A DNA stretch of 64,000 bases from positions 29,563-93,562 of the forward strand of contig JAQGDQ010000806.1 in assembly GCA_030141605.1 (NCBI GenBank), given 5' to 3'. The position numbers and the translations under genes were made by a program. The notes beneath the pieces are model-generated. The model was not told the origin of the DNA. It was given only the letters and a program-made list of their open reading frames with translations, and did not search any database. Positions 3,001-60,417 of this stretch are shown one piece after another. The DNA is from Tubiluchus corallicola. Its lineage: Eukaryota; Animalia; Priapulida. Numbering within the stretch: position 1 is the first letter of the stretch; each line of letters begins with the position of its first letter.

Positions 3001-6000
3001 TTTACAAGGATTAGGAGTACAATAGTCAATGTCTGGAAAAAATAATCTTAAAAAATTACTGGTTGCCCAGCTGTAGTAAAATTAACATTATAATAAAGTC
3101 TAAAGAATGCTGTGTAACAGGAAAATGTACACATAATGGTTGACTCGATTACTGACTTATGAAAAAGAGCTTAATGAACATATTTAAGCAATTTTAAGCT
3201 TGACGCTCAACAAATTTATTGTTATCTGATAGAAAAACATTTTTGTACCAATTATTATCTATGTTAATTTTAATTTTGTTCCTTGGTTAGCTATTCTTTT
3301 CATCAAACACTGAAGCATTAGAATTATAAAATATGCAGATACAACATTATAAATGTAACGAAACAAATTATACTAATATGGCACCACACTTTGTTGTGAT
3401 AATGCATGGATTTCACAGTCACAATTGACATCTGATCAATTTGTTAAACATTGTTCACAAAGATTGAAATTGTGGTCACAAAATATGTCTGAAAAATTCC
3501 GAAATAATTCAGAAATTAACTTTAAAAAAGATTTCACGTTTTTTAAGTCCATTATAACTGCAAAGATATTGCAACAAAACTTTTGGACATCTATCATAAC
3601 AAAAAATAATGATAAAATAACAGAACAATTAAGGCCTGGCCTATAACTAGCAAATATTTTTGACCATGCCAAAAACTATTGATGATTTTGCTTCTGTGAT
3701 ATTTTGATTTCAAAAATAATTTTTTTCAATAATTAGGAATGCATTTGTAAGTGCAGTTGTTTTTAACATTAACAGCATAAATTAAAAATGGAAATAAGTC
3801 AGTTTTAGCCCGTTGACTCAGTGACAAGTTCCATTGTATAGAATGCAATCTCATTGAAACCTTTGAAATGATGTGTTAAAAATACTAAAATGGGAACTGT
3901 CACTTTTAACGTGTGACTTGTGATCAAGGGTCAACCATCGTGGCCACGAGACTCACAAAAACTTACTTCATGTTTTTGGAACCTTTCTCATGTGGTTGGG
4001 ATTAGGCTCAGCTTGTACCAATCAAATCATCCCTTTGAGGACTTATTTGGTATACTGCTGCAGCATGGTATTAAACATAATTATTTCCCAGGCTATTTCA
4101 TAACATTTTTTATTCCATAGCAAGGCAAATACAGGTTAGCTCACAACATTTAATTTGCCTTAAATTGACATACCATCAACATCTGTTGCTCGGCACTGAA
4201 TGCACTTTTGTTTTTCATAAACTTCCAATTTCATTTTGACCTTTTAGTGAGACTAACCACTCACTTTAGTGAGACAAACCATTCAGTTAGTGTCATCAAA
4301 ACCTTTCAATTCATATATTACCAGCTACTGTTCTTCGAAATTGAAGATTTTGTTTGACAGCCTGGGAGAGTGTCACTTTAATTCTTTTTTGCCTCATCCA
4401 GGCCTCTCCTTTTATGTATAATAGAAGCCCTGATTATCGGCAACGGAAGCATCGATGTAGAACGGGGAGAAACCGCCTCCATCAGCTACCACGACTGTCA
4501 GTTTTTTAACTCCTTTAACTAAAGGTTGTAAATATAAAGTTAAGCGATAACTTTGCCTCTTATTGCAGGGAAAAACCTGCTCCATCAGTTACTATGGCCG
4601 TCAGTTTTCCTCAGTGAGTTTATACCATTCATTATGCCTATTAATTAGGCAATTACACGGTTAATGATGCGACAAGACAAGTTTCCCATTTACATACTTG
4701 GACAATAAATCTATTTTTACGTACTTCATACAGAGCAGATAGCAATTTGCTTACTTCGGAAATGATTTTCCGGTGCCGTTTGGCTTCAGTATTCGAGTAA
4801 TTTTGAAAATCAAAAGAATGTAAAGTGACATCACTCGAATTGAGAAATTTCATTTTCAAGTCAGTTTTTGGGACCAACACCTTTGCAATAATATTTATAT
4901 TCATTTGTACCTTCATCACATTTATCTCCTTTGTAACCAACATTGCAGGTGCATGTGTATTTGTTCTGTTGATTGTTGCATATACCATTAACACAAGGGT
5001 TTGACTTACACTCGTCAATATCTAGAATATCGAAACAAGCAATTGATTAAAAATAATGATTTTATTAATGTTTGCAAGTGTAGAAAAAATATCGCATGCC
5101 TGCCATTGATAAAAAAAGATAATGCCAAGATAAAGTGGAACAACTCTAACCAGAAAAAATCTGACAGGGATGAAAAGAAAAGCAGAGAAATTTTGTCAAT
5201 ACTCTTTAAATAACTAAAACCATAAATATATGTAAACACAGAAGAGCAGTGTAACAAAGAGAAATATTCACAGTTACCCTGACCTGTGCCTGACCTTGTG
5301 TAAACAGGGCACCTGTACAGTGCACATATTATATATTACATACTATACCTCATTAAAAACCATCTTACTTTAAACTCATTCAGCGTAAAGAAGAATATGT
5401 TGATTTGTTATATGTTGCACATAATTGATTTCAGGATTCCCAGAGTTTTCCACAGCATAATAAATCGTGATAAAAAATGAACTATCATGGTATAATGTTA
5501 AAATTTAGTGAAGTGCTCAAAAGAAAACATCGCAAATTATGATCAAACTGGGTATGATGGTCATCCATTCAGGTTATTTTTGGTAACAATAACTTTTATA
5601 ACACTTTACTCATAATTAGAAATTTTAGTGGAAGATCGGCTATCATGCAGAAAAAAACTAAATTAGTGAGATTATAATAAGGTAGAAGTAGCTTTTAAAA
5701 TTAGTGTAAATGCAAATGCTTAAAAGTAACTAAATGTTGAAAAGGAATATGTATGAATACTAGAAAAAAAACAAAGTTATCAGAAACCTCAACCTTCATT
5801 TCATATTTATGCTGTCAATGTTTCTCTTGTATGCAAACAATTATAATGTGCAATGAAGAAAAGAAAGTACCATCTTCACAGTGAGTGCCAGTAAATCCAG
5901 CAGCACATTCGCAAGTAAATTTATTGATTAGGTCCTTACACGTAGCCCCATTACCACATGGATTTGATAAGCATTCATCAATTTCTGGAAAAAAAAAATT

Positions 6001-9000: not shown

Positions 9001-12000
9001 TACATAAAATGCACCTGCTTACCTTACACAAACTAAAAATCGACTTTTGACGAAGATTTAAAAAAATTTTTAGAGTAACTGCAGTGTTTGCACTCTAACA
9101 ATGTACATGTGCAGAATTGGGCAACTTGTGCATAATCAGCTAATGCAGAAAATTGAAACTATTCAGACACATTAATCTGACACAGTTTCGACTCAAGTCT
9201 GCTCTATTTTTGGAAGAAAGTTCTGTTAAAAATGAAACAACCTTAATTTTTTCTTGACTGTTCCCTTGTTTTTTCCTGGAACCTTGTACAGACAGACTAG
9301 GACACTTGGTTGTCTAAGTTGGAGTGTGTGAAAGGACGGGTTTAATGTTTTAAGCAAGTTTTTTGTTTAGAAAATCATTTGGAAAGACGACATTCTTCTT
9401 AAAGGAACAACACTTAATTTGTAATCATTTAATTATGTTTTAGGTAGCAGTAGCTAAGCAACATTTCATCAGCAGAAAAGATTATAAGATCTATTTTAAA
9501 GGATGCAGTTATGAAGGAGTTAAGGAATTCAGCAAAAATAGTTAGTCTTCTACATGCAAAAAGGTAACATAAATAAATGGCTGTTATGTTGCACAACATT
9601 AATCTCTATATGTACTCAGACTAATTGATCCTATGTGCATCAATGCACGAGGACATCAATATAGCTTCAACTATTGTGCATATTAATAAATTTTTACAAC
9701 ATGTTACCTTGTTCACAGTTTAGTGCAGTATATCCACTAGGACAATTACAAGTGTATGTGTTGATTCCATCTATACATGTGCCTCCATTTCTACACGGAT
9801 TAGGCGTGCAGTTGTCAATAACTAAAAAATGAGAATCAACTGATCTGCTACGTTCGTTCACAAAACAATTTGCACGTCATGCTTCACAAACAGTTTTAAA
9901 AATTTATTGATAAATGTTCCTAAGTATAAACTTGAACAACTTCAATATTTGCAAAACTCAGCAGCTAGATTTACTACCTTTACATCCACATTTCAGAATA
10001 ATTATTACATCCATTTTTCATCATTTCTATTTGCTAGCGACTGAGCAATGTGTTCAGCTGCTACATGTATTTAAGGTGCTTCATGGCGAAACACCCGATT
10101 ACATTTGTGACATAGTCAAACAAATTCCAATTAGAAATTTTAACGTTGTATTTATGGATCAGGAAAGCTGTTCGATCGGAAACTGATTATGTTCATTCAG
10201 TAGTTCTTTTACAAATATTAAGTACAAAAATAAACACTTACGTTGACCAGTTTTCAACTTTGCTTCTATCAACATCTATGTGTTAAGAAATTTTAACAGC
10301 ATAAAATTTCACCTTGGTCACAATTATCTCCTTCATAGTTTGACCGTTAAGCAGTGACCACAATCAATAACTGAATTTGTTCATTTAGCATTTCTTACAC
10401 TCATTCAATGTTAAAAAACAATTATGTTTATCAATTTTTCAGGAAATCTTCATACTAATTTTTTTCACATATTAAAAAACTTGTTAAGAATTTTTTTGAT
10501 ACAGCTGTAATATATAATTGTACCTTTGTCACATCTATCCCCTTCATAGCCAGCTTCGCAGGTACAAGTGTACATATTCTCTAGGTTATTGCATTTACCA
10601 TGGTCGCATGGATTTGACTGACATTCATCAATATCTAAAGTATTCAAAACAAACATCAATGTATTTTTTTAATCAATTTTTAAAATGATAATATTAATGT
10701 TAAGTATCATTACACAAGCAAAAGCTAACAGATTACAAAACCTTATATCATTAAGTTCAACCAGAAAATGGTGAAGAAATAAAAATATGGTCACCAAGCA
10801 GAACAAAATGAACAACAAGTAGAAATATTTGCTGTTTTGTCTTTTGCAGTAATGCAAAGAGCAATATCTTCATTCCAACATCCAATCAAAAACAAGTTAT
10901 TCCAAGTATTTTACTTATAAAATGTTTGCCTTCAGTTACACTCTTAATTATAACATGATTACAACTTGCAACAAAATGCACTTGAACTAATTCCATTAAC
11001 TTTCAGTTCGTAAAATTTAGCTAAAACAATTGTTCCAGAAAAAATGATTTACAGAAAAACAATTTTACTTTCTTCAAAACAATTTTTATTAGTACATTCA
11101 AATCAGATTTTTGTATTGCATTATTCTAGCAGTTTGAGCATTAAGCAGTGACCACGATCAATAATTGGGTTTGTTCATTTAGCATTTTTTACACTCATTC
11201 AATGTTAAAAAACACTTATGTTTATCAATTTTTCAAGAAATCTTCATACTAATTTCTTTCACATATTAAAAAACTTGTTAAGAAATTTTTTGATACAGCT
11301 GTAATATATAATTGTACCTTTGTCACATCTATCTCCTTCATAGCCAGCTTCGCAGGTACAAGTGTATTTATTCTCTAAGTTTTTGCATGTTCCATGGTTG
11401 CATGGATTTGATTGACATTCATTAATATCTGGAAAATTCAAAAAGCACATCAACGTAGTTTTTAAAATCAGTTTTCAAAATGATAATATTAATGGTGAAT
11501 CATAATCATAACACAAGCAAATGCTAACAGATTGCAAAAGCTTATAACGTTAAGCTCACTCAGAAAATTGTGAAATTAATAAAAATACGGTCTACAAACA
11601 GAAGAAAATGAAAAACAAGTAGGAAAAATTTGATTTTTTTGTGTTTTGCAGTAAAGCAAACAGTGATATTTTCATTACAATTTCTAATCAAGAACAAGAT
11701 ATTCCAAGTATTCTTCTTAAAAGTTTGCCTTCGCTTACTGTCTCATGATTACAACTTGCAAGAAAATGCATTTGAATTAATTCCATTAACCTTAATTTGC
11801 TAAAATTTAGCTAAATCTACGTTCCAGAAAAAATTTCGTATGATTTACAGAAAAACTTTTACCTGTTTTTAAAACAATTTTTATTACTACATTCAAATTG
11901 CACTGTTCAAAGCACAATTAGAGTGTCGCAACTATTTCTTGCAGTTTGAGTGTTAAGCAATGACCACGATGAATAATTGGGCTTGTTCATTTAGCATTTT

Positions 12001-15000
12001 TTACACTCATTCAATGCTAAAAAACACTCATGTTTATCAACTTTTGAGGAAATCTTCACACTAATTTCTTTCACATATTGAAAAACGTGTTAAGAATTTT
12101 TTTGATACAGCTGTAATATATTATTGTACCTTTGTCACATCTATATCCTTCATAGCCAGGTTCGCAGGTACATGTGTACATATTCACTAAGTCTTTGCAT
12201 GTTCCGTGGTCACATGGATTTGATTGACATTCATTAATATCTAAAGTATTCAAAAAACACATCAACGTAGTTTTTAAAATCAGTTTTCAAAATGATAATA
12301 TTAATGTTGAATCATAATCATAACACAAGCAAATGCTAACAGATTGCAAAAGCTTATAACGTTAAGCTCACTCAAAAAATTGTGAAATTAATAAAAATCC
12401 GGTCTACAAACAGAAGAAAATGAAAAACAAGTAGGAGGAATTTGATGTTTTGTGTTTTGCAGTAATGCAAACAGTGATATTTTCAATCCAATTTCTAATC
12501 AAGAATAAGATATTCCAAGTGCTTTTCTTAAGTATTTGCTTTCAGTACTGAAGAAACCAGAAAATAACTTTCTTAGCATGGAGGTAACTGCCTGCCATTG
12601 TTTATGTGAAGCCTCAATATAACATTACATAAAAATATAAGCAAATGGTAGCTTCCCTATAAGATTCACCTATAGTGCATATATTCTACATGCTGTAAGA
12701 TGAATTCAAAAATATAAGACACTAGCAGCTATCTGCTTACTTCACTGCAGTAAATATTAATAACAGTAAATATTAATAATAGTAAATTTTTAATAATAAT
12801 TAAAAAAAGAAATAATAATAATAATAACAACAACAACAACAACAACAGACAGAAAGCTATTTGTACTATGTACAGAAATGAACTAACAATAATGCATCAA
12901 ATGAAATTATATTAGCAAAAATGCATTAGACTCTGTAATCTCACTAATTTGTAATTAATGCACCTACTAAGATATATAAATCATGGAATTTTTGATGGAG
13001 TTGGTTTCGACTTGCACTATATAAAGGGGTTTTGAGCAGATAATGTTCAATATTTTCAGTATGATAAACACATAAACAATTTTTACTGACATTAGTGTCT
13101 TTACTGACATTAGTGTCTATTACCAATAGTTTCTTTACAATCATGTCAATGTAGATGATTCTTATGTGGCAATTGGTTTTACCGATTACGTTTGGAGTAA
13201 AAAATTTTGGTTGATTAAAAAACCAAAGTATGTTTTTCTTTAGATATGGACATACTCTTCGATTGAGTACATTCAATATTGTTGTAAATTACTCCACATG
13301 GTAAAGGTTAAAGGAAAAATCATATTCATTACTTAACAAATTGACGTATATACCTCTATTTTGAACAGGCAACGATTCGTACAACAATAATGGTGATATT
13401 TTTTGTTAAATTTTCTCGATTCATTTTTAGCTTCAATTAATTCAATTATTTTCTCAATTAAAAACTGGTTTTTAGTACACTCGATCATCAAGCTATACTT
13501 AAGACATTCACTTAGTGTGACAATGAAACACTTTTGTCACATTCATTAAATCTTGTTTCAAACATGTGGACATGTGGGCAAGGTCAAAGCAGCTTCAATG
13601 ACCCGAACTCCGCATAATCGTGGATTGACATTGCACACTGGAGTGGAAATTGTGACTTACTCTTTAATTACTAAAATTTAAACAAAACAAAATCATACTA
13701 GAAATCACACAACGTGTTTTAAATTGTCAGAAAAAATGCAGACTTTTCACATAGAATCCAATATAACAATTAGTATTGCTTCCATCAATGATATCATAAC
13801 CAACACCACAGAAACGAGGAGATTTACTTTCAAGGTTATAGAATATACCATTTGAAAAACATTCAGCAACATAAAATTATAGAATTCAAATTAAACAATG
13901 ATGTAAATGTTGTTCTTGACGACGCATTTTTAACACTTTGATTAGCGTCATTCAAATAATTGTAAAAATATTATGTCTGCAACAAATCAGCCATCTGTGG
14001 CAAAACCTCATTTAAACGCTGTCCTGTCTAAGTACAGAGAGAAGTTAAAAGGGAAGTCACGTTGTAGAGTTTCAAGTTTAAACTATTGGCTTATTAAAGT
14101 ACATGTTTCTGTAACTATCTGCCCGCATTGAACTTTAATTATGACAATTAAATGTGCAGCTTAATTAACAAAAAATAATTTGTCTTAACGACTAAATTAA
14201 GGTAAATGTTAAACGGTAAAGTTAACTTAGTGCAACACGTTTATAACAGGAAACCTTCTCTCAAACATTTATGAATAAAAACTTAATTTCTTGCTGCTTT
14301 CACTTGAGTGATAAAATGTTACTCTAGATTTTCTAATAACTAAGATTAAAAAATGGATTTTACCTTTTCACAATAAAATTAACAAAATTTCTAGCATAAA
14401 TCTACTTTAACATAATACTATGTATAAAACACATTTCGTCAAATCTATCAAGTGGATGTGTGCATTTAAACTTGACATTTTTGCTCAAATTCTCTTAATT
14501 AAATACAAACTGAAAAATTCAAGCTTATTTAATATTAAACACAGAATAGTTTTTCTTGTCATCATTTAAACCATTAATAATTAAAAACAGTTATGTCACC
14601 ACAACATATGATTTTCTTTTTGAATTTTGTAATTTGGGTTCATCACAAAACCAAAAGCTCTGCAAATTTCGAGCATAAAAAATATACTATTTCAATGCTT
14701 GTTTGCTATGATGAAATATATTTGTATATTAGAACATTTTTGCCTAATTTCACATTTCTAACATCTAAACGTGAAGTAGATTCTAAACTAGACAGAACAT
14801 TAGCCTGCATAGAAACAGCAATTCCCCCAAAATCAACTATTCAGACTGGTTGTGTTTGAGCAGATAAAGTTTAATGCAATTTTACTAAAAGCATATTAAA
14901 ACAGAGCAGACCTGTAGGACGGGAGACCACAAACAAACGTGCTTTAAAATTCAACTACAGTGTTTTCTGTTATACAAAAAAACATTCTGTTTTCTGTTAT

Positions 15001-20700: not shown

Positions 20701-22435
20701 TTTGGTCAAAATTTCGAAAGAAAATCGGGAGTTGGGTCCGGGAAAACATAGTGATGCCATGGGCCTCCCACGAATTCCAAATATGCCTACTACACCCACT
20801 CCTGAATGGTTATGCAACAATTATCAGCACCACCACTGGCATATTCCCCACCTCCAAAAATAAGAGGTAAAAGTTTTGCAAAAAAAGGCTAGAAAATGGC
20901 CATTTTTTGAGGTTTTTTGCACCCCGTTCATCGCCGTGAGTCCGATTCGAAAAATAATCCCCCAGTGGCATGATGCTAGATCGTGATCTTTCATTTGCTA
21001 TATAGATCGCAGCAAATAGGGCCATCATCATTGGACCTGCAGGAAATGATAGTCAATGTGCCATATAAATGAATGTACGCAAGTACTTGTAAATATTTTA
21101 TTATCAAATTTTATTCCTAGTAAAGTGATTTTTGTAATTATTTACTAATACCAGTATCTTTAAATCAGTATTTTTAAACTTCAGCGTATACAACACAGCC
21201 ACATCGCATGAAAAATGTTTCTAAAATGTGTTAAGGAATGGTGAACAATTGGTAGGCAGTATGTCAGATTTGTGCTTCTGGTAATTTTTTGACCATGATT
21301 TTCCACTTCCAGTGGTTAAAATTAAAATTGGCGCTTCAAATTTCTGAAATAAACTAACTGAAATGCAGCTAAATGTTATTACGAACAAACAAAATGGCGA
21401 ATTTACCGGCTAAGGGTCGCACATGCTCACCCGCGCCCAATAGCATGCTTGCACAAGCAGAGAGTCCTAACTGTACATAATAGTATTGTTTAAACTGTGC
21501 AGTTTAACCCTGTATGTACTGGAGTGCAGTCACAAGTGTATGTGTTTATTTCATTTGTACATGTGCTTCCATTTTACACGGTTTAGGCCTGCTGTGGTGA
21601 GCGGCTGAGTTACTGGTTTATTTCGTGTGTTTACAAGGCAAGTTACTGAGAAGTTTCACTGCAGAACAGTGCATTTTCTAAAATTCATTTTTAATGGTAA
21701 AGCAGTGTGCTCAATCAATAACTGAGTTTGTTATGATAATAATAATAATAATAATAATAATAATCTTTATTTAAAGTCTGCTTTTGGGTCAACAATTAAC
21801 ATTAGCTCAAAGAGTGCACTTTCAAAAATACATTTTTTAATGGTAAAGCAGTGTGCTCAATCAATAACTGAGTTTGTTATGATAATAATAATAATAATAA
21901 TATTAATAATAATAATCTTTATTGAAAGTCTGCTTTTGGGTCAAAAAAAAACATTAGCTCAAAGAGCTATTATTGCCGACTACAACTACATAACTACATA
22001 ACAGAGACTATTATTACCCCGCTTTTACCCTAAATGCCACGCGTCAGGCAGGGCAAAGCAGGTACGATTTTTTAAAGACTTAGGTATGACCCGGCCGCTG
22101 GTTCGAACTCACGACCTCCCAGATGGAAAGCAGACGCATTACCACTAAACTAAACCGTCTGGTATAAAATCGTCTTGTTCATTTAGCAGTTTGCACGCTT
22201 ATTAAGTAGGAAAAAAAAACACATATGTTTGCCAGTTCCGAGTAAACCTTCACACTTGTTTACTTCACATATTAAAATACTGATGCTGAGAAATCTTTAA
22301 TGCTACTGTAATGTATAATTGTACCTTTGTCACAATTATCTCCTTCATAGCCAGCTTTGCACTTACAAGTGTACCCATTCACTAAGTCATTGCATGTTCC
22401 GTGGTCACATGGATTTGATTGACATTCATCAATAT
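1..22435 (-). CDS. Multi-exon gene (partial) encoding tandem calcium-binding EGF-like repeats (Notch/fibropellin-like extracellular protein)
   Basis: 17 intact AG/GT-bounded exons of 111 or 114 nt, each phase 1-1 and encoding one six-Cys EGF module (typically D-I-D/N-E-C-x-S-N-P-C...G-Y-x-G-x-x-C). The gene continues off the left edge. No start, signal-peptide or transmembrane exon was found in the window. Confidence 0.9.
1452..1562 (-). CDS. EGF exon, 111 nt: [37 protein letters not shown]
   Basis: AG/GT boundaries, six Cys, phase 1-1. Confidence 0.9.
2384..2494 (-). CDS. EGF exon, 111 nt: [37 protein letters not shown]
   Basis: AG/GT boundaries, six Cys, phase 1-1. Confidence 0.9.
2564..2795. 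repeat. Intronic tandem duplication, ~123-bp unit x2
   Basis: CAGTTT(T)ATGCAAAAAC..ATATAAGTTAGCAAATAA...GAACTTGAGCAAAAATA occurs twice. Confidence 0.85.
2919..3032 (-). CDS. EGF exon, 114 nt: [38 protein letters not shown]
   Basis: AG/GT boundaries, six Cys, phase 1-1. Confidence 0.9.
4911..5021 (-). CDS. EGF exon, 111 nt: [37 protein letters not shown]
   Basis: AG/GT boundaries, six Cys, phase 1-1. Confidence 0.9.
5871..5984 (-). CDS. EGF exon, 114 nt: [38 protein letters not shown]
   Basis: AG/GT boundaries; lies within ORF 5815..6009. Confidence 0.92.
7334..7444 (-). CDS. EGF exon, 111 nt: [37 protein letters not shown]
   Basis: AG/GT boundaries; lies within ORF 7266..7526. Confidence 0.92.
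8154..8267 (-). CDS. EGF exon, 114 nt: [38 protein letters not shown]
   Basis: AG/GT boundaries, six Cys, phase 1-1. Confidence 0.9.
8707..8817 (-). CDS. EGF exon, 111 nt: [37 protein letters not shown]
   Basis: AG/GT boundaries, six Cys, phase 1-1. Confidence 0.9.
9708..9821 (-). CDS. EGF exon, 114 nt: [38 protein letters not shown]
   Basis: AG/GT boundaries, six Cys, phase 1-1. Confidence 0.9.
10313..10338 (-). pseudogene. 3' fragment of an EGF exon (YEGDNCDQ plus donor GTGAAA)
   Basis: Matches the 3' end and downstream intron of exon 20179-20289; the 5' part and acceptor are missing. Confidence 0.7.
10524..10634 (-). CDS. EGF exon, 111 nt: [37 protein letters not shown]
   Basis: AG/GT boundaries; within ORF 10465..10659. 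Confidence 0.92.
11318..11428 (-). CDS. EGF exon, 111 nt: [37 protein letters not shown]
   Basis: AG/GT boundaries; within ORF 11259..11453. Confidence 0.92.
12130..12240 (-). CDS. EGF exon, 111 nt: [37 protein letters not shown]
   Basis: AG/GT boundaries; within ORF 12071..12265. Confidence 0.92.
12810..13420 (-). mobile_element. Degenerate 3' end of a non-LTR retrotransposon (CR1/L2-group-like)
   Basis: ORF 12944..13276 contains [24 protein letters not shown], resembling the C-x-C...E...H.LL.C..Y...R motif at the end of LINE ORF2; a (TTG)n(TTA)n tail follows on the minus strand. Confidence 0.5.
15517..15630 (-). CDS. EGF exon, 114 nt: [38 protein letters not shown]
   Basis: AG/GT boundaries, six Cys, phase 1-1; the most divergent module. 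Confidence 0.88.
15682..15816 (-). mobile_element. Short Helitron-like non-autonomous remnant
   Basis: Minus strand begins TCTTATATT..., has a CCGTCTGTCTG core and ends ...GCAACTAA. Called on pattern similarity only. Confidence 0.3.
16298..16446. repeat. Compound microsatellite (TA)n(TG)n(TA)n
   Basis: Read directly from the sequence. Confidence 0.95.
17180..17293 (-). CDS. EGF exon, 114 nt: [38 protein letters not shown]
   Basis: AG/GT boundaries; within ORF 17145..17327. Confidence 0.92.
17650..17740. repeat. Microsatellite (TTA)n(TTG)n
   Basis: Read directly from the sequence. Confidence 0.95.
18472..18584 (-). pseudogene. EGF exon lacking its donor site: [37 protein letters not shown]-stop
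   Basis: Intact acceptor at 18585-18586. The 3' end is fused to intron sequence identical to 19661-19730 and reads into an in-frame TAA. Confidence 0.75.
18617..18949. mobile_element. ~330-bp fold-back (palindromic) MITE-like element
   Basis: Left arm TTAATGCTGAAGATACCACAGAATGA...GTAAAGCATGAAAACTAACAATA mirrors right arm TATTGTTAGTTTTCATGCTTTAC...TCATTCTGGGATATCTTCAGAATTAA around a (CA)n/(TA)n/(TG)n centre. Confidence 0.75.
19639..19660 (-). pseudogene. 3' fragment of an EGF exon (..RINCGQ plus donor GTATAC)
   Basis: Same donor context (ATGTATACCTTGA on plus) as exon 19789; the remainder is absent. Confidence 0.5.
19789..19902 (-). CDS. EGF exon, 114 nt: [38 protein letters not shown]
   Basis: AG/GT boundaries; within ORF 19736..19942. 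Confidence 0.92.
20179..20289 (-). CDS. EGF exon, 111 nt: [37 protein letters not shown]
   Basis: AG/GT boundaries, six Cys, phase 1-1. Confidence 0.85.
20417..21060 (-). mobile_element. Dispersed repeat, Helitron-like non-autonomous (second copy at 59625-60417 in opposite orientation)
   Basis: ATCAATAATACGCGAACATCCTAC, TTTGGTCAAAATTTCGAAA and TATAGATCGC shared in reverse complement with 59.7-60.4 kb; minus-strand end CTTTGCTAA. Confidence 0.6.
21490..21590 (-). pseudogene. Degenerate EGF pseudo-exon ([31 protein letters not shown]-stop)
   Basis: One-base deletion in the K-N-G codons, no recognisable first Cys, acceptor or donor; flank resembles the intron beside exon 19789. Confidence 0.75.
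21668..21966. repeat. Tandem duplication (~146 bp x2) that includes the SINE tail
   Basis: TTTTAATGGTAAAGCAGTGTGCTCAATCAATAACTGAG...(AAT)n...CATTAGCTCAAAGAG occurs twice. Confidence 0.85.
21886..22160 (-). mobile_element. tRNA-derived SINE
   Basis: Minus strand has an A-box-like TAGTTTAGTGG, a B-box GAGTTCGAACC, a central GGTCATACCTAAGTCTTTAAAAAATCGTACCTGC segment and a 3' AATAAAG(ATT)n tail. Confidence 0.75.
22325..22435 (-). CDS. EGF exon, 111 nt: [37 protein letters not shown] (most 5' exon found)
   Basis: AG/GT boundaries; within ORF 22272..22457; flanks homologous to the triplicated unit at 10.3-12.5 kb. Confidence 0.92.
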
Positions 22436-22703
22436 CTAAAGTGTTCAAAATATACATCAGTGAAGTTTTTAAATCGATTTTCTATATGATAATATTAATA
22501 TTAAATATCATAACACAAGTAAAAAGTAACAGGTTGCAAAAGCTTATAATATTGTGGTGTTTTACACCTGCTCACCTCCTCTCGCCTTAATTGTTCTGAA
22601 GAAGGACAGCTATTTTACCTTCGACAACAGTAAATTAGCTAATAAATGCCCTAAGAATGGGATCAGCGGCGATTATAATGATTGCGCGCACTTGCACGAA
22701 CAG

Positions 22704-23094
22704 TGTGAAAAATGTCTAAAGGTAAAATAGCTAAGACATCAGTATATTGCAGAACACAGGTGAGTTTATTTATACAAATCAGTTAGTCATACAAATTATC
22801 CACAGCACATGTTGATTCTATGCTCTCTGACAGCCAACTGCCCAGGTAAGTTTTCTATGAAGCAAGGAAGCCAGCAATTCTATGAAGGGTAAATGTTATG
22901 CATACTACATAGTTCAAGGATAAAAGTTTAGACTGTATATTAAGAAATAGACTTATTTTACAGCTGAAATTTCTTGTGTGGGATTTTTAATGTTTTAACC
23001 AGAGACTACAATAATATGACATAATGAACAAAAATAATGACATATGACATAATAATAAAAAATAATGACATATGACATCGTGAACTTCACGACA
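22704..23094 (-). repeat. 3' LTR (may extend left to 22553)
   Basis: Near-identical to 26198-26572 apart from substitutions and a short indel; contains ~28-bp ATATGACATAAT repeats and a minus-strand AATAAA (22765-22770). Confidence 0.85.
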
Positions 23095-23508
23095 CTCCGA
23101 CCAGGAAGTTGGAAATAACAAACTATTTGATACTTTAACCTTTTAAGTCATTTAACTTTTACAAGAAATAAATTTGTTACATTTCTTAATCATTTTAAGA
23201 ATAACATCTAACATCTTAAGTACGAGATGGCGCCACCAACCAGTTTGGGCGCCGTGGATAAATACGAATCACACCATTGCAAAACGGAGTATTTGGGCTA
23301 TGTACAAAGAGGGTAAGTTTTTTTTAATCTAATTTAATAGTGGCATTAAATTTCAAAGTAATTTTGTATATAATTATCACGCTACATTCGTAACAAGTTT
23401 CATTACACACAACTTAACGATAAACTTAATATTTCTCTATTGAGTTTCACTACAAATAACATTCAATCTCTAGATTACAAAATCATCATGACGATTTGAG
23501 TACAAAGT

Positions 23509-23592
23509 ATCGATTTAGGATACAAATTCGTAACAAAGGGCATCGATTTAGGATGCAAATTCGTAACAAAAGGCATCGATTTAGGATGCACA
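23509..23592. repeat. 33-bp tandem repeat (~2.5 copies) in retroelement 3' region
   Basis: ATCGATTTAGGAT(A/G)CAAATTCGTAACAAA(G/A)GGC repeated. Confidence 0.85.
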
Positions 23593-24039
23593 CGATTTAC
23601 CAATCGTTAGATTTAAATTACAAGTGGATTGCTAACCGAGGACATGCACAAGTACTATTACTATTAGCAAGTATAATAAGCAATGACATCCAGCATTGGT
23701 TACTCTTTGTGTTTATGATAAAGTTTGTACAGCATTTGCTTGGTTCGCCTGTAGGTTATGCTGTACATGGTCTATCACACAATTAGACACAATTTATCAA
23801 TAACATTTCTATCATTACTTTTTTTCAGGTTTATAACAAAGAGCACGTTTTGTGCACAAGGTAAGTATAAGGTAACTCAGGTAAGTAATATTTTAACAAC
23901 TTAATAAGCAGCTATTCAAACAGTGTTAACAATAACAGCAACAAGTTATTCAAATGATGTTAACAACAATAGCAATACTAAACAATGCAAAACTTATTTA
24001 CAAAATCTTTAATGTTTCTAATTTTACAGGTAGATTTGA

Positions 24040-24291
24040 TTAAGGTGGATCTTGGGTTTCAATAGAAACAATTCGATACAAGTGGAAAGTTTTCCGACAT
24101 TTGCAGGATCCACGTGGTAAGTTTGAATTAGAAATCAGAATTACATCATTATCGTTTGACGGAATAATTACAACATTTTTCATAGAGTTTGGCTTTCTGA
24201 TTTCTGTATATGCATACTGTGTCAAAGATAGCCACATGATTTTAAATGGAAATTTAATTCCATACATGAAAACTTTTATGGCTCTAAACAT
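24040..24291 (-). pseudogene. Remnant of BEL/Pao integrase C-terminal region (DUF5641-like)
   Basis: FKIMWLSLTQYAYTEIR...NDVILISNSNLPRGSCK...HLYRIVSIE resembles the F-W..W...Y-L..L-R...GDVVL....LPR..W...LYPLE pattern of BEL/Pao pol C-termini; located just 5' of the 3' UTR and LTR. Confidence 0.65.
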
Positions 24292-24580
24292 GAATGCAAT
24301 GAAGTGTGCCGAAATTCTTCATTTTATACAAGTTTATAGAACCAAGGAAATTATGCTAGGACTTTATTTGAAAGGAAAAAAATCAGTTTGATATCTACAA
24401 AGCTACAAACCAGGTGATACAGTTGCTCTGCTTGGAAAAGAAGTCAGTTTGCTTGGTATAAGGCTGCAAACCAAGTGATACAGTTACTCTGTTCCTGTTT
24501 ATACTGAGTGCTAAATATATGGACAGTATTGGTGCTTCTAATTTGGAATCCAGACGACTGCAAGTTAACCTTGTTTGAGT

Positions 24581-25408
24581 ATGGCCACCACAACAACCAC
24601 AAGCGACAAGACTATTCTTTATACGCCGCCGTGGGAGGGTGAACCTAAAGGTCATGACATAAGGACTGGACAATTATTCCAGCCAATACAACCAAACAAG
24701 GACTCATCAAAGCAAGGAGTGACCATTATGGACCATGGTTCTAAGGACTCAGACGACGAGGAACCGGACTATGAGCAGCAACTACATATTCCAGCTACCC
24801 CAGCACATGGAGCCACCCCAACAGCTGCAACTGGAACAATTCCGAAGGTGGTTCCAGACAAAGATCCATTGCATGGACACCAGCTGGAGGTGAAGATACT
24901 GATCCAGAACCTGAAAATAAACTCACAGCACTATGGTGAGGTGTTTTTCACATGTACTACATTGTTAGACTTAGAATTTGACAAATGTATTGCTAATTAT
25001 CAAAACTTTGTTGACAGATGTAATGCTTCAATTACTGATTTGAGATTTTCAACTGAAATGCTCACAGAGTTGTATGACAAGCTATCATATATTTATTGTA
25101 GTTCAGATGATAGTTCCCATTTAGATGAAGTTAAAGAATTTCTTGCTTCAAAAATTACATTGAACAGAAATTTGTCTGAACTTAGTTCTAAGATTGAAGC
25201 CAGAATTAGGTCATTAGAAACCTGTCACTTGAAGGTCAGTGAACCTGTACCTGTAGTATCAAGCACACCTGTTTCTGCTGTGCCTAATATGACATCACAG
25301 CTAAATGCTGTGAACGTTAGTCATGCAAGCACTGTGTATAATGTAATTTTTGAAGCAAGAAATTCTTTAACTTCATCTAAATGGGAACTATCATCTGAAC
25401 TACAATAA
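24581..25408 (+). CDS. Truncated Gag-position ORF (inverted copy, 275 aa from ATG), running through the spacer into the opposite arm
   Basis: Open ORF ~275 nt downstream of the PBS-derived sequence; acidic/Pro-rich N-terminus then helical-looking region. Identity inferred from position, not from a motif. Confidence 0.55.
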   Translation: MATTTTTSDKTILYTPPWEGEPKGHDIRTGQLFQPIQPNKDSSKQGVTIMDHGSKDSDDEEPDYEQQLHIPATPAHGATPTAATGTIPKVVPDKDPLHGHQLEVKILIQNLKINSQHYGEVFFTCTTLLDLEFDKCIANYQNFVDRCNASITDLRFSTEMLTELYDKLSYIYCSSDDSSHLDEVKEFLASKITLNRNLSELSSKIEARIRSLETCHLKVSEPVPVVSSTPVSAVPNMTSQLNAVNVSHASTVYNVIFEARNSLTSSKWELSSELQ

Positions 25409-25920
25409 ATATATGATAGCTTGTCATACAACTCTGTGAGCATTTCAGTTGAAAATCTCAAATCAGTAATTGAAGCATTACATCTGTCAACAAAGTTTTG
25501 ATAATTAGCAATACATTTGTCAAATTCTAAGTCTAACAATGTAGTACATGTGAAAATCACCTCACCATAAAGCTGTGAGTTTATTTTCAGGTTCTGGATG
25601 AGTATCTTCACCTCCAGCTGGTGTCCATGCAATGGATCTTTGTCTGGAACCATCTTCGGAATTGCTCCAGTTGCAGCTGTTGGGGTGGCTCCATGTGCTG
25701 GGGTAGCTGGAATATGTAGTTGCTGCTCATAGTCCGGTTCCTCGTCGTCTGAGTCCTTAGAACCATGGTCCATAATGGTCACTCCTTGCTTTGATGAGTC
25801 CTTGTTTGGTTGTATTGGCTGGAATAATTGTCCAGTCCTTATGTCATGACCTTTAGGTTCACCCTCCCACGGCGGCGTATAAAGAATAGTCTTGTCGCTT
25901 GTGGTTGTTGTGGTGGCCAT
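25321..25920 (-). CDS. Truncated Gag-position ORF (sense copy, 199 aa from ATG)
   Basis: First long ORF after 5' LTR and PBS; nearly identical to the plus-strand copy; ends just past the fold-back junction. Confidence 0.55.
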   Translation of the reverse strand: MATTTTTSDKTILYTPPWEGEPKGHDIRTGQLFQPIQPNKDSSKQGVTIMDHGSKDSDDEEPDYEQQLHIPATPAHGATPTAATGAIPKMVPDKDPLHGHQLEVKILIQNLKINSQLYGEVIFTCTTLLDLEFDKCIANYQNFVDRCNASITDLRFSTEMLTELYDKLSYIYCSSDDSSHLDEVKEFLASKITLYTVLA

Positions 25921-26186
25921 ACTCAAACAAGGTTAACTTGCAGTCGTCTGGATTCCAAATTAGAAGCACCAATACTGTCCATATATTTAGCACTCAGTAT
26001 GAACAGGAACAGAGTCACTGTATCACTTGGTTTGCAGCCTTGTACTAAGCAAACTGATTTCTTTTCCAAGCAGAGCAACTGTATCACCTGGTTTGTAGCT
26101 TCGTAGATATCAAACTGATTTTTTTTCTTTCAAATAAAGTCCTAGCATAATTTCCTTGGTTCTATAAACTTGTATAAAATGAAGAA

Positions 26187-26197
26187 TTTCGGCACCA
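26187..26197 (-). promoter_or_regulatory. Primer-binding site TGGTGCCGAAA (complementary to a tRNA-Phe-type 3' end)
   Basis: TGG abuts the LTR-terminal CA; tRNA assignment is from recalled tRNA-Phe sequence and should be verified. Confidence 0.75.
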
Positions 26198-26572
26198 TGT
26201 GAAATAATTCTGAAGGTAAAATAGCTAAGACATCAGTATATTGCAGAACACAGGTGAGTTTATTTATAAAAAATCAGTAACAGCACATGTTGATTCATTG
26301 CTCTCTGACAGCCAACTGCCCAGGTAAGTTTTCTATGAAGCAAGGAAGCCAGCAATTCTATGAAGGGTAAATGTTATGCATACTACATAGTTCAAGGATA
26401 AAAGTTTAGACTGTATATGAAGAAATAAACTTATTTTACAGCTGAAATTTCTTGTGTGGGATTTTTAATGTTTTAACCAGAGACTACAATAATATGACAT
26501 AATGAACAAAAATAATGACATATGACATAATAATAAAAAATAATGACATATGACATCGTGAACTTCACGACA
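26198..26572 (-). repeat. 5' LTR
   Basis: Minus strand reads TGTCGTGAAG...TTATTTCACA, followed directly by the PBS. Confidence 0.85.
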
Positions 26573-26701
26573 GCGTAGGTGACCACCGCTAAAAACTTTT
26601 ATAGTGTAGTACATCACACTTTTCGGCGTTACTAAGATAAAAATTTTCATCTTTTTTTCAAAATTCTGACCTGATTTTTCTTATTTGAAAAAACTATTTG
26701 T

Positions 26702-26742
26702 GAGAGAGAGAGGAAGAGAGAAAGAGAGAGAGAGAGAGAGAT

Positions 26743-26809
<67 letters not shown>

Positions 26810-26815
26810 AAGAGA
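26702..26815. repeat. (GA)n microsatellite
   Basis: Read directly from the sequence. Confidence 0.95.
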
Positions 26816-27107
26816 CGTTATCATCATTGTTTCTACCATTCATTACATCACTATGCACAAATTTGGGCACAGTAATTCCTATGAATAAGGTGGACGATTA
26901 TTTATTATTGGTGACATATTTAGAGTGCATAGAAACTGGCTGGCGGCCACTTGTCAAAGGGGGAGTGGCAGGGAGTGTCAGACAGTTTTTCCTTTTGGTC
27001 GCATCTCCTCCAATGGCATTCGTTTTTTTTCTATATTTATAAGCATTTGGGCACTGTAGGGTAGATATACATGCTGTGTTTTAAAACACATGCTGTAAAG
27101 GAGAGTT

Positions 27108-28060
27108 TGCCAGTTTGCCTGCACACCTGATATGTTTAAACTATTGTGTTAATGTCTTGCAATTTGGTTTAAAAAGTCATGTGACACTTCATCCATTAAT
27201 TTTTGGGAAATCATACCTCAGCTTTCTTTTCAGTTCCCTACCTCAGCTACTTTTGTACATAAACGTTTCTTACTGTTTCTTTCTCAAAATTTTCGGTTTT
27301 ATTTCCTCACGATTTCTAAAATTTACGGTTTCCTGGTGATATTCTGCTCTCAGTTGGATCTATCAGGCAAAATAATTGCAAAACTTGACAAAATATATCC
27401 GTTTTCTGACTCTTTTAAATTTTTGTGTTTGATTAGTTTCATAATTAATTTTTGTAATTTGTTACATGCCTTTTATAAAGGTATCGATCTAGTATCGTCT
27501 CATTAATGGTTTACATTAATGCTCACGCACAGCTGGAGGAACAGTAGCAAAAAAAACTCAAGAATGGCCTTTTAGCTCCATTTTTTGCGAAATTGATATC
27601 TCTTATTTCTAGAGAAAGGAAACGGCCGTGAAACGGGGCTGGTAACGGATTCATAGCCCTTCCAACGGTGGGTATATTCCTGGGAATGCCGTGTGACCGT
27701 TTAGTTGGTTTTTTTCTCGGACCCAGCTTTGGAAATAAGATCAATAGCTCTTTGAGAAGAAGAGGAAACGGACTTTTCATAGACTGAAAAAGCCAGTGTT
27801 CTGACGACATTCCATGTCTGCCTATAATTTTACTTCAATAGAAGCTGCTCCTAGCTCTTATAATGAAGTATTACAATGGTAGTCCATTACAATCAAAAGG
27901 AACAGTTTACAAAAACGTAGAATACCCATTCATTATATTGATCATTGGCGATTGGCTCTAATAGAATTTGCCATGTCAAACAGTTTTAACCTTCGCAATA
28001 CTGTTGTGCTGCCCGCGTTGGTATTGTAGGTGTCACCGTTGTATTTGTTACAACCAAAAT
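27108..28060 (+). repeat. Local duplication, paralogous to ~45070-46080
   Basis: Shared GCAATTTGGTTTAAAAAGTCA, TTGTTACATGCCTTTTATAAAG and CCTTTTAGCTCCATTTTTTGCGAAATTGATATCTC in the same order. Confidence 0.85.
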
Positions 28061-44300: not shown

Positions 44301-45350
44301 CAGAATGTTCTAAAGTATAGTAGACAATCTTCTTACCTTGTGTATTGCACAGTGAATATTTACTGTAACATAGAAGCAATCGTAGATATACGAAATGCGC
44401 GTATTAGTTTCTAGATTGTTCTAGAATGAGGCAGAGCTGGCACTCATTATTGTTCTCAGATTCTGAGACTCTTAGATACACACACTTTCTCGCTTTCATG
44501 TTTCCAGATTATCACATTGACTTTGTACATATGTACATATTTTGAATTCCTTCACATTTTGTGTTGTGGAATTGTCACACAATAAACCTGTTTAATTGGA
44601 CAACGTGTTTTCTTGTTTTCTCTACGAGCTGTCCGAGAGAAAAAAACACAACAGAGTTGTGCCGAGATTGAGTGGCCTTAGACTGGATTCACAGGTTGAA
44701 ATAGCCATTTCTTTATGAATTGCAGTCGCTATGCATTCAAGGCAAAGTCAAATCAATAAAGCAAAAAATTAGAACTTTCAAAGAAAATATGGCATTTTTT
44801 TCAGTATCCAATTCTGTAAATCTTGACTATATTGTTTGCAAAATCTTAAGTTTTAAATCACGTCAGAAACATTTTCAACTATTATAAATTATTCATATTT
44901 ATCAAACTTATTTGTTAGTTTTACCTGGTTGCTGGCAGCACCTGGCTTTTTATATAGGTGTAAAACCATTTTTTACATCGGCCACGTCACGAGGCTCAAG
45001 AAGATTGTGTTCAGTTATGCTGTTAGACGGCAAATAATGACAACCTCCAGCTGTGATGATGGCTATGCCAGTTTGCCAGCACACCTAAGCTGATATGTTT
45101 AAACTAATGGCTTAACATCTTGCAATTTGGTTTAAAAAGTCACGTGACACTTCAGCTATTAATTTTTGCCACAGCTTTCCTTTCAGTTCTCTACTGCAGC
45201 CACTTTTGTACATGAACGTTTCATGCTGCTTTTTTCTCAAAATTTTCGTTTTTCGTTTCCACACGATTCCCAAAATCGACATTTTCCTGAAGATATTCTG
45301 CTCTTTTAACTGGACTGGCTAAAATAATCGCAAACTTTTGGCAAAAACAA
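41385..45350 (+). repeat. Multi-kb block paralogous, with insertions, to ~55400-63655
   Basis: Collinear matches: 41385-43090/55400-56892, 43530-44245/58590-59315, 44605-44885/59318-59605, 44900-45010/61355-61460, 45115-45350/63425-63655. Confidence 0.85.
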
Positions 45351-59624: not shown

Positions 59625-60417
59625 ATATATATATATATATATATTTATTTATATGTATATAAGATTCGAGGCTACAGCCCGGACGAGGGCACCATTTGCG
59701 GCGATCTATACATCAAACGAAAGGTCTCGATCTAGTGTCGTGCCATTGATGGTTTATTTTTCGAATGGGGCCCACCGGGAGGAACGGGGGTGAAAAACCT
59801 CCAAAAATGGCCCTTTTTCGGCCATTCTTTGCAAAAGTTATACGGCTGAGATGTTGAGAACGGGAACGGGCCGAGGGTGGTGCTAGGTATGGATAGATAG
59901 CCCGTTCAGCGGTGGGTGTAGTAGGCATATTTAGAATTCCCGAGAGGGCCACGGCGTCCCGTAACGGGCGTTTTCCCGGACCCAACTCGCGATTTTTTCG
60001 AAATTTTGACCAAACAGCATGCGGGAAAAACGTTCTAGCGTCGCCTGGTGGGACTCTCGGAAGGAGATATATACCTCTTTACAAAGAGGAAGGACAGGGC
60101 TACACGATAATGTGGGGTATATTTTAGGGCAGGTCCACCGAGAGGAGTATCAACGAGTTAGTTAGGAGTTCTATTTTCGGCAATTTTCACTTAGAAAACT
60201 GCTGACGCAAAGGCATTGTTGTGACGTCATCCATTGTATTCTGTCTATAATCTTATAACTTTAATTCAGTAAAAAGCTACAGGCTTTGCGTTAGTTAAAC
60301 AAACAGTAGGCACGATGTTACGGGCTTTGTGTTATAAATGTGGACTAGGTAGGATGTTCGCGTATTATTGATTACACGTGTATTTATACGCAAAATCTTT
60401 TGCGGGACCTTTGCTAT
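59625..60417 (+). mobile_element. Helitron-like non-autonomous element
   Basis: (TA)n-rich 5' start; 3' hairpin CGCAAAA-TC-TTTTGCG (60389-60404) about 10 nt before a CTAT end; no TIR or TSD; absent from the paralogous block near 44890, so an insertion. Confidence 0.6.

What the first reader, a model, noticed from the sequence alone, without database searches (positions are those of the whole stretch)
22704..26572. LTR-driven long-hairpin locus: a BEL/Pao retroelement turned into a candidate 'transposon killer'
Seen: on the minus strand the element reads 5' LTR - PBS - leader - gag N-terminus - 178-nt loop - the same 856 nt in antisense - integrase remnant - 3' LTR. Nearly all of pol is gone but both LTRs remain, including a poly(A) signal. 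The arms carry scattered substitutions (TIPKVV/AIPKMV, QHYGEVF/QLYGEVI), which argues against an assembly fold-back artefact. Known: long fold-back transcripts are Dicer substrates, and the maize Mu killer locus, an inverted partial duplication of MuDR, silences its family in trans. Inference: one LTR-to-LTR transcript would fold into ~850 bp of dsRNA covering the family's leader and gag start, making this a possible animal retroelement equivalent.
Basis: partly seen in the sequence, partly recalled or inferred. Interest (0 to 1): 0.85.

Follow-up and report, generated by a model that had tools for sequence, protein, structure and literature searches.

The report
Fold-back retroelement copy forming long hairpin
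A broken jumping-gene copy (BEL/Pao type) in an animal genome carries an 856-base mirror-image duplication of its own front end, likely a copying accident, that would fold any RNA made through it into a long double strand aimed at its sister copies, but no RNA or silencing effect has been seen and similar cases are known.

Summary
The structure is in the sequence: direct LTRs (22704-23094, 26198-26572) and 856-nt inverted arms with 13 differences around a 178-nt loop. The gag piece matches a full BEL/Pao polyprotein at 66-69%. Corrections: the loop belongs to the inverted copy; the 'integrase remnant' is fused pol scraps without the integrase core; the arm differences are clustered; there is no target-site duplication.

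Contigs of three public DNA runs (two samples) hold many 95-99+% sister copies, so targets exist. None bridges the inner fold-back joint, none listed bridges the outer one, and the sisters continue normally at both places. So this is one rearranged copy, not the family form, and it has no independent confirmation. The inversion starts at base 3 of the primer-binding site, which suggests a reverse-transcription template switch.

No RNA data. A Drosophila precedent (Penelope inverted copies) gives siRNAs but poor silencing. The scan noted similar retroelement hairpins in three other genomes.

The parts
26198..26572 (-). 5' LTR, 375 nt, TG...CA; AATAAA at 26264 overlapping a TATA-like word at 26268; lacks 17 nt present in the 3' LTR
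26180..26197 (-). primer-binding site (starts TGG directly after the LTR); all but its first 2 nt lie in the stem
   Evidence: tRNA identity not tested
25340..26195 (-). 5' arm: PBS base 3 onward, leader (with 2 x 61-nt tandem unit), gag start (ATG 25920; matches P0001 1-194 at 69%)
25162..25339 (+). 178-nt loop = further gag codons, read on the + strand, part of the inverted copy
24306..25161 (+). 3' arm: inverted copy of PBS-leader-gag start, 13 substitutions against the 5' arm
24581..25408 (+). open frame of 275 codons: truncated Gag N-terminus in the inverted copy (66% to P0001 1-253), stops after entering the other arm; AATAAA at 25404
24303..24305 (.). 3 nt at the outer joint that match neither the pol scrap of sister copies nor the PBS
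   Evidence: loose ends at 24300-24302
24007..24302 (-). fused pol scraps (RNase H-integrase linker piece plus DUF5641 tail pieces); integrase core absent; also seen without gaps in sister contigs
23095..24006 (-). long 3' non-coding region, ending in a short purine-leaning tract before the 3' LTR
22704..23094 (-). 3' LTR, 391 nt, AATAAA at 22770
22760..24123 (+). six strong splice donors antisense to gag (GT at 22760, 22846, 23313, 23861, 23881, 24117) with acceptor-like sites near 22833, 22963, 23828, 24029; two more donors in the 5' LTR (26254, 26324)
   Evidence: motif level only
22325..22435 (-). nearest host exon (EGF repeat), 268 nt beyond the 3' LTR, same strand as the element; it begins with a splice acceptor, so the element is likely intronic

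Best explanation
This is a single defective copy of a multi-copy BEL/Pao retrotransposon family in which the primer-binding site, leader and gag start are duplicated in reverse, likely by a double template switch during reverse transcription, so that RNA made through it would form an 856-bp hairpin that is probably a by-product, not a dedicated silencer. Shown: the anatomy, the family identity, sister copies that continue normally at both joints. Inferred origin: DNA synthesis left its template inside gag, copied a second template of opposite polarity back to its natural end at the primer-binding site, and rejoined in the pol scrap, losing the sequence between; a later exchange with another sister copy would explain the missing target-site duplication, the two LTR types and the mixed leader. 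Inferred working: LTR-driven RNA, or host-gene read-through on the same strand, would fold back, bury its own primer-binding site and gag AUG (so it likely cannot copy itself) and could feed Dicer or ADAR; any siRNAs would match the leader and gag start of sister copies, with weak or unknown effect, as for Penelope inverted copies.
For: Arms and LTRs. P0001, a 2185-aa polyprotein with DUF1759, Peptidase_A17, RVT_1, Integrase_H2C2 and DUF5641, is the only hit among 1.84 billion representatives and matches both gag pieces and the pol scraps. Sister copies: 73 of 78 (X1), 154 of 159 (X3) and 13 of 14 (X4) laid contigs are 95% alike or better; internal contigs are several times deeper than flank contigs (X1 99-164 against 15-21; X3 2407-4359 against 244; indicative only). 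Sisters go on past 24302 with other, pol-like sequence and past 25340 with a 99-nt gag repeat. The inverted piece starts at PBS base 3, with 3 unmatched nt at that joint and 1 nt of microhomology at the inner joint. Three leader differences (24455, 24459, 24485) are family polymorphisms carried together on one X3 contig of depth 800, and the 5' LTR's deletion type shows as a loose end in X1, so the right part looks like another subtype. Both arms share letters at 24983, 25028 and 25155 that the laid contigs of X1, X3 and X4 lack, so the inner stem comes from one copy. Aberrant strand transfers near the PBS are documented for HIV-1 (PMC12657518, passages, which do not mention inversions) and template-switch fusions for plant LTR elements (PMC1950507, abstract).
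Against: No contig of three runs bridges the inner joint and none listed bridges the outer one, so reality is not independently shown. A single reverse-transcription event should give identical LTRs and a target-site duplication; neither holds, so a second event must be assumed. Extra AATAAA words at 25585, 25097 and 24368 on the minus strand could end the RNA before the stem is complete. No RNA evidence of any kind.
Confidence: 0.55

Rival explanations
1. Real, but made in the chromosome: a break inside an already integrated copy was repaired by fold-back or fork-stalling template switches, giving an inverted duplication with a spacer and a deletion; function as in the best explanation.
For: Inverted duplication with a spacer, 1-nt microhomology and 3 filler nt is also what repair leaves (established knowledge, recalled). 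No target-site duplication, and the host exon array stops 268 nt from the element with no exon found in the 37 kb to the right, which hints at a chromosomal breakpoint.
Against: It gives no reason why the inverted piece should start within 2 nt of the LTR/PBS border (by rough reckoning a chance of the order of 1%).
Confidence: 0.2
2. Assembly or library artefact: a chimeric molecule or a mis-join of family copies produced the inversion.
For: 0 of 3 runs that hold the family show the inner joint: the Joints table is empty, cover stops at 25340 (X1 112.56 expected from three contigs against 112.5 seen; X4 177.34 against 177.3) and is 0 at 25369-25385, although X3 keeps other low-depth joints (depth 199). 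Mismatched flanks and mixed subtypes are also what a mis-join at a repeat would give.
Against: Arms differ by 13 substitutions and no indels, some private to each arm; two non-homologous joints are needed; the palindrome is bounded inside direct LTRs and does not run into the flanks; the window has no N. The runs hold only 0.49-0.56 of the stretch's words and differ in a flank contig (22209), so they may not be the assembled individual; Logan contigs drop rare variants.
Confidence: 0.15
3. A working trans-acting silencer like Mu killer: the hairpin is transcribed, diced, and heritably shuts down the family.
For: Stem of 856 bp with unbroken helices of 347 and 217 bp; 632 of 836 21-mers identical in both arms; it covers PBS, leader and gag start, the deepest-covered part of the family in X4 (224-287 against about 50 for the 3' region); two possible promoters on the sense strand.
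Against: No RNA evidence; allele not seen in two samples; the Penelope precedent shows siRNA without efficient silencing (PMC3681739); Muk depends on plant RdDM and RDR6-type amplification (bioRxiv 2020.01.09.900282, passages); an siRNA pathway in this host was not shown (one search listed no paper with the likely host's name).
Confidence: 0.1

Closest known systems
Maize Mu killer (Muk) (PMC2563033 and bioRxiv 10.1101/2020.01.09.900282, passages read)
   Same: A rearranged family member with part of its 5' region duplicated and inverted; a long hairpin over the start of the key gene.
   Different: Muk is a DNA-transposon derivative with a perfect 2.4-kb hairpin and shown transcript, siRNAs and heritable silencing in a plant; here 856 bp, 98.5% matched, in an LTR retroelement of an animal, with none of those shown.
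Rearranged Penelope copies with long inverted repeats in Drosophila (PMC3681739, passages read)
   Same: Animal retroelement copies with long internal inverted repeats; siRNAs map to the inverted parts.
   Different: Penelope-like, not LTR; several such copies arose in transgenic strains; siRNAs were measured and did not silence efficiently. Here a natural BEL/Pao copy with both LTRs, and the stem includes the primer-binding site.
Template-switch products of LTR elements: complex insertions in Triticeae (PMC1950507, abstract) and defective HIV-1 proviruses (PMC12657518, passages)
   Same: Defective element explained by aberrant strand transfer, with joints at reverse-transcription landmarks.
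   Different: Those texts describe fusions and deletions, not an inverted duplication (0 hits for 'inversion' or 'inverted' in PMC12657518); and this copy lacks a target-site duplication.
Belpaoviridae / BEL-Pao LTR retrotransposons (PMC8742986, whole text read); nearest relative P0001
   Same: LTRs in the 0.2-1.2 kb range, PBS after the 5' LTR, gag and pol pieces homologous to a single gag-pol polyprotein with A17, RT, integrase-region domains.
   Different: 3.9 kb, no protease, RT, RNase H or integrase core; a non-autonomous derivative; about 0.9 kb of 3' non-coding region with antisense splice donors not seen in distant relatives.

Membership tests
BEL/Pao (Belpaoviridae) derived element | two direct LTRs of 0.2-1.2 kb with TG...CA ends | tested here: met
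   391 and 375 nt
BEL/Pao (Belpaoviridae) derived element | gag and pol homologous to BEL/Pao polyproteins | tested here: met
   66-69% to P0001 gag N-terminus, E 9e-10 and 1e-4 for pol scraps; P0001 has DUF1759, Peptidase_A17, RVT_1, Integrase_H2C2, DUF5641 above cut-off
BEL/Pao (Belpaoviridae) derived element | 18-nt PBS complementary to a host tRNA (Arg or Gly in the ICTV profile) | tested here: inconclusive
   starts TGG right after the LTR; no tRNA in the window; its first 11 nt occur in 0 of 80 related loci; likeness to tRNA-Phe is recalled only
BEL/Pao (Belpaoviridae) derived element | polypurine tract of about 10 nt before the 3' LTR | tested here: inconclusive
   only a short purine-leaning end
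Autonomous BEL/Pao element | protease, RT, RNase H and integrase present | tested here: not met
   tblastn of P0001 finds only gag 1-253 and pol scraps
Single intact LTR insertion | target-site duplication and near-identical LTRs | tested here: not met
   no 4-6 nt repeat at the exact ends; LTRs 1.6% apart plus indels
Transposon-killer locus (Mu killer type) | inverted duplication of part of a family member | tested here: met
   in this assembly only, not bridged
Transposon-killer locus (Mu killer type) | homologous target copies in the species | tested here: met
   multi-copy 95-99+% contigs in 3 of 4 DNA runs laid (X5 had none); an autonomous copy of this subfamily was not shown (one search found none)
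Transposon-killer locus (Mu killer type) | hairpin transcript made | not testable with these tools
   no RNA holder listed
Transposon-killer locus (Mu killer type) | arm-derived small RNAs | not testable with these tools
   no small-RNA run offered
Transposon-killer locus (Mu killer type) | heritable silencing of the family in trans | not testable with these tools
   needs carriers and non-carriers

The most novel reading that the evidence does not exclude
A natural animal 'retrotransposon killer': an LTR element whose own reverse transcriptase folded its primer-binding site, leader and gag start into an 856-bp stem, which is read by the LTR or the host gene and silences or directly masks the priming site of its sister copies. 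In addition the family carries a built-in spliced antisense unit starting in its 3' LTR (six strong donors in 1.6 kb), which in this copy would also run into the inverted gag and give a 275-aa truncated Gag.
Probability: 0.1. Interest if true: 0.75.

Novelty: new member of a known kind. Interest (0 to 1): 0.3.

Why it matters
How silencing of a new transposon family starts is an open question, and hairpin-making rearranged copies are one proven route in maize. A natural, probably polymorphic example in an animal LTR element, with known targets and two unique joints as markers, would allow a direct carrier/non-carrier test. As it stands it is an untested structural candidate of a kind that has precedent and that this scan has met in other genomes. 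The antisense splice-signal cluster is a separate, family-level oddity that may be the more original lead.

Tried and rejected
No whole genome is held, so copies could not be counted or compared in the assembly. No RNA holder listed; X6 (RNA by guess) laid only 2 contigs, both outside the element; X5 laid none: none of this is evidence on expression or absence. Pfam on 4 frames of the element: nothing significant. A search for longer proteins with the gag N-terminus (442-2000 aa only, so P0001 itself is out of range): none. A 24-nt LTR/PPT word in viral contigs: 0. Rfam on 22000-27500: one IRE-like match below its gathering score, taken as chance. A-to-I editing as the source of the arm differences: only 3 of 13 would be G-U on the sense RNA; rejected. 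Conversion from the sister 61-nt unit: the other arm's letter matches the sister unit at some sites and not at others; not supported. The idea that the hairpin is the family's normal, propagating form: rejected, since sisters continue normally at both joints. Antisense donors as a general BEL/Pao trait: 2 antisense and 0 sense GGTRAGT in 30,044 nt of tails from 26 loci (34 of the 80 loci chosen because their match reached the C-terminus; 8 dropped for tails under 400 nt), so not general. Upstream host exons: 176 minus-strand frames of 40 aa or more right of the element gave only piggyBac- and pogo-type scraps above cut-off. The script check of the antisense ATG used a wrong motif and gave nothing; that ATG is read by eye. 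An empty-site copy of the flanks is not in the window. My notebook says 21 EGF exons; the count is 19 strong plus 1 scrap.
Full report
Observation. The window holds an 861-nt inverted repeat that stands far above all others. Exact alignment gives arms 24306-25161 and 25340-26195, 856 nt, 13 substitutions, no indels, around a 178-nt loop, inside two direct LTRs at 22704-23094 and 26198-26572 (6 substitutions in 373 sites plus indels, one of 17 nt). A TGG-starting primer-binding site follows the right LTR on the minus strand, which fixes the element's sense as minus. A fold of the sense strand pairs 846 of 856 arm positions in register; 3 differences are G-U and 10 are mismatches, leaving unbroken helices of 347 and 217 bp.

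Family. Pfam does not recognise the element's frames. A search of 1.84 billion representatives with the 275-aa gag frame gave one hit, P0001 (E 3.5e-104, 68%, 2185 aa), which carries DUF1759, Peptidase_A17, RVT_1, Integrase_H2C2 and DUF5641 above cut-off and has 575 relatives at E 1e-30 or better, the listed ones with the same BEL/Pao domains. P0001 matches the + strand gag frame over residues 1-253, the minus strand one over 1-194, and two scraps at 24007-24297 (residues 1654-1699 and the DUF5641 tail). So the element is a BEL/Pao derivative as defined in the ICTV profile (PMC8742986, whole text), without protease, RT, RNase H or integrase core.

Corrections. The gag frame continues through the loop on the + strand, so the inverted piece is 24306-25339 and begins at the third base of the primer-binding site. 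The arm differences fall in two clusters (p = 0.0002). There is no target-site duplication.

Public runs. Six runs were listed; four hold about half of the stretch's words (X1-X3 one sample, X4 another study); none is on record as RNA. All are Logan contigs. Two stretches were laid: 21990-25369 on X1, X3, X4, X6 and 24180-25385 on X1, X3, X4, X5. The family is multi-copy: internal contigs have depths of 99-164 against 15-21 for flank contigs in X1, and 2407-4359 against 244 in X3 (depth is only indicative). Of the contigs laid, 73 of 78, 154 of 159 and 13 of 14 are at least 95% alike. X4 contigs cross the deleted pol scraps without gaps, so the broken pol is a family trait and the parent was likely already non-autonomous. 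At both fold-back joints the sisters continue normally: past 24300-24302 with other sequence that by eye resembles the P0001 residues just upstream, and past 25340 into a 99-nt tandem unit of gag (depth 122.5, 743.6, 230). No joint is listed; cover in X1 and X4 is fully explained by contigs that stop at 25340, and it is zero at 25369-25385 in all runs. For the outer joint the tables are cut (234 pieces and 10 loose ends not shown), so I can only say that no listed contig bridges it. The hairpin allele is thus unseen in two samples. This rules out the hairpin as the family's usual form; it does not rule out the allele, since such contigs drop rare variants and the runs may not be the assembled individual. 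It leaves an artefact risk that I put at about 0.15.

History. Three leader differences between the arms are family polymorphisms: one X3 contig (depth 800, 5 differing letters over 24426-24515) carries the 5'-arm state, the deeper ones the 3'-arm state. The 5' LTR's 17-nt deletion type also shows as a loose end in X1. Other differences are private to one arm (24443, 24836, 24848 on the left; 24901, 24930-31, 24944 on the right, judged from contigs 21, 3 and 4 and table 3), and three sites in the inner stem are shared by both arms but absent from the runs. Hence the inner stem derives from one copy, while the right-hand LTR and leader look like a second subtype. Arm divergence cannot be used as a clock. 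The simplest account (inferred): a double template switch in reverse transcription, because the PBS is where minus-strand DNA and RNase-H-trimmed RNA end (established retroviral knowledge), followed by an exchange with another copy that removed the target-site duplication. Repair in the chromosome is the main rival. Papers seen for this: PMC1950507 (abstract) and PMC12657518 (passages; strand-transfer errors near the PBS, no inversions).

Setting. Nineteen strong EGF-repeat exons and one scrap lie on the minus strand from 1417 to 22481. The nearest, 22325-22435, begins with an acceptor 268 nt past the 3' LTR, so host pre-mRNA likely crosses the element in its sense direction; no upstream exon was found in the 37 kb to the right. 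Host read-through would make the hairpin without LTR activity; the LTR poly(A) signals could also cut the host RNA short. AATAAA words at 25585, 25097 and 24368 could end the RNA early. Earlier notes call the genome probably priapulid; I did not test this.

How it would work. Any sense RNA across 26195-24306 would bury its own PBS and gag AUG, so the copy likely cannot retrotranspose, in line with its absence as a family form. The stem is a likely Dicer or ADAR substrate (established knowledge); 632 of 836 21-mers are the same in both arms and would match sisters. Whether this silences anything is untested. Mu killer does, through a perfect 2.4-kb hairpin, siRNAs and methylation (PMC2563033, passages; bioRxiv 2020.01.09.900282, passages). 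The closer animal case cuts the other way: rearranged Penelope copies with long inverted repeats give siRNAs matching the inverted parts but do not silence efficiently (PMC3681739, passages). Six literature searches (listings read, not all texts; supplements not opened) showed no hairpin silencer from an animal LTR element, but the library is incomplete. This scan's own notes describe three similar retroelement hairpins in other genomes (unchecked).

An extra feature. All 8 matches to GGTRAGT in the 64 kb, both strands, lie in this element on the + strand: 6 in 22704-24302 against a shuffle mean of 0.13 (0 of 1000 shuffles reach it), 0 on the minus strand, and 0 outside the element where shuffles give 9. 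Acceptor-like tracts lie between them, and an ATG at 23227 opens 28 codons up to the donor at 23313 (read by eye). Distant BEL/Pao tails do not show this (2 in 30 kb), and the LTR-motif paper PMC3601003 has no 'splice' passage. It suggests a spliced antisense unit of the family, in position like the antisense RNAs of HTLV-1 (PMC1459196, search listing only), or signals that let a host RNA splice the element out (recalled for Drosophila 412). In this copy a + strand RNA would read the inverted gag in sense and meet AATAAA at 25404. This is motif evidence only.

Verdict. Real in this assembly and probably in the animal; a one-off rearranged copy of a non-autonomous BEL/Pao family with true hairpin potential; function untested; kind known. 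Interest 0.3.

Noticed in passing
window:22760-24123 (+) and 26254, 26324: All 8 strong splice donors of the window lie in the element, antisense to gag, with acceptor-like tracts between and a short ATG-led exon at 23227-23312; possible spliced antisense unit of the family; not seen in distant BEL/Pao tails.
   Followed up: partly
window:1417-22481 (-): Host gene with 19 single-EGF exons (plus a scrap), several in recent ~800-nt duplications (10330-12358); exons near 18475 and 21493 look broken; the array stops at the element.
   Followed up: partly
window:24007-24302 (-): The pol remnant stays in one open frame for 92 codons across about three internal deletions, and sister contigs share it.
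   Followed up: partly
window:25248-25340: In sister copies this stretch is one unit of a 99-nt (33-codon) tandem repeat in gag; the fold-back joint falls at the end of a unit.
   Followed up: partly
run X4, window 24311-24864: Leader and gag start are 4-6 times deeper than the 3' region, with a loose end before 24608: other short derivatives may carry only this part.
   Followed up: no
window:52221-53967 (-): Frameshifted piggyBac-type transposase remnant (DDE_Tnp_1_7 in 4 frames).
   Followed up: no
window:51717-51866 (-): pogo/Tigger-type DDE_1 scrap.
   Followed up: no
window:37140-37525 and 46522-46907: 386-nt inverted repeat, 92% matched, 9 kb apart.
   Followed up: no
window:21990-22215: Very high-copy short repeat (SINE-like depth in all DNA runs laid, also in X6).
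   Followed up: no
window:27108-27995 and 45066-46002: A ~900-nt repeat, 80% alike, with further pieces at 20852-20918, 59720-59920 and 63428-63524; no family assigned.
   Followed up: no
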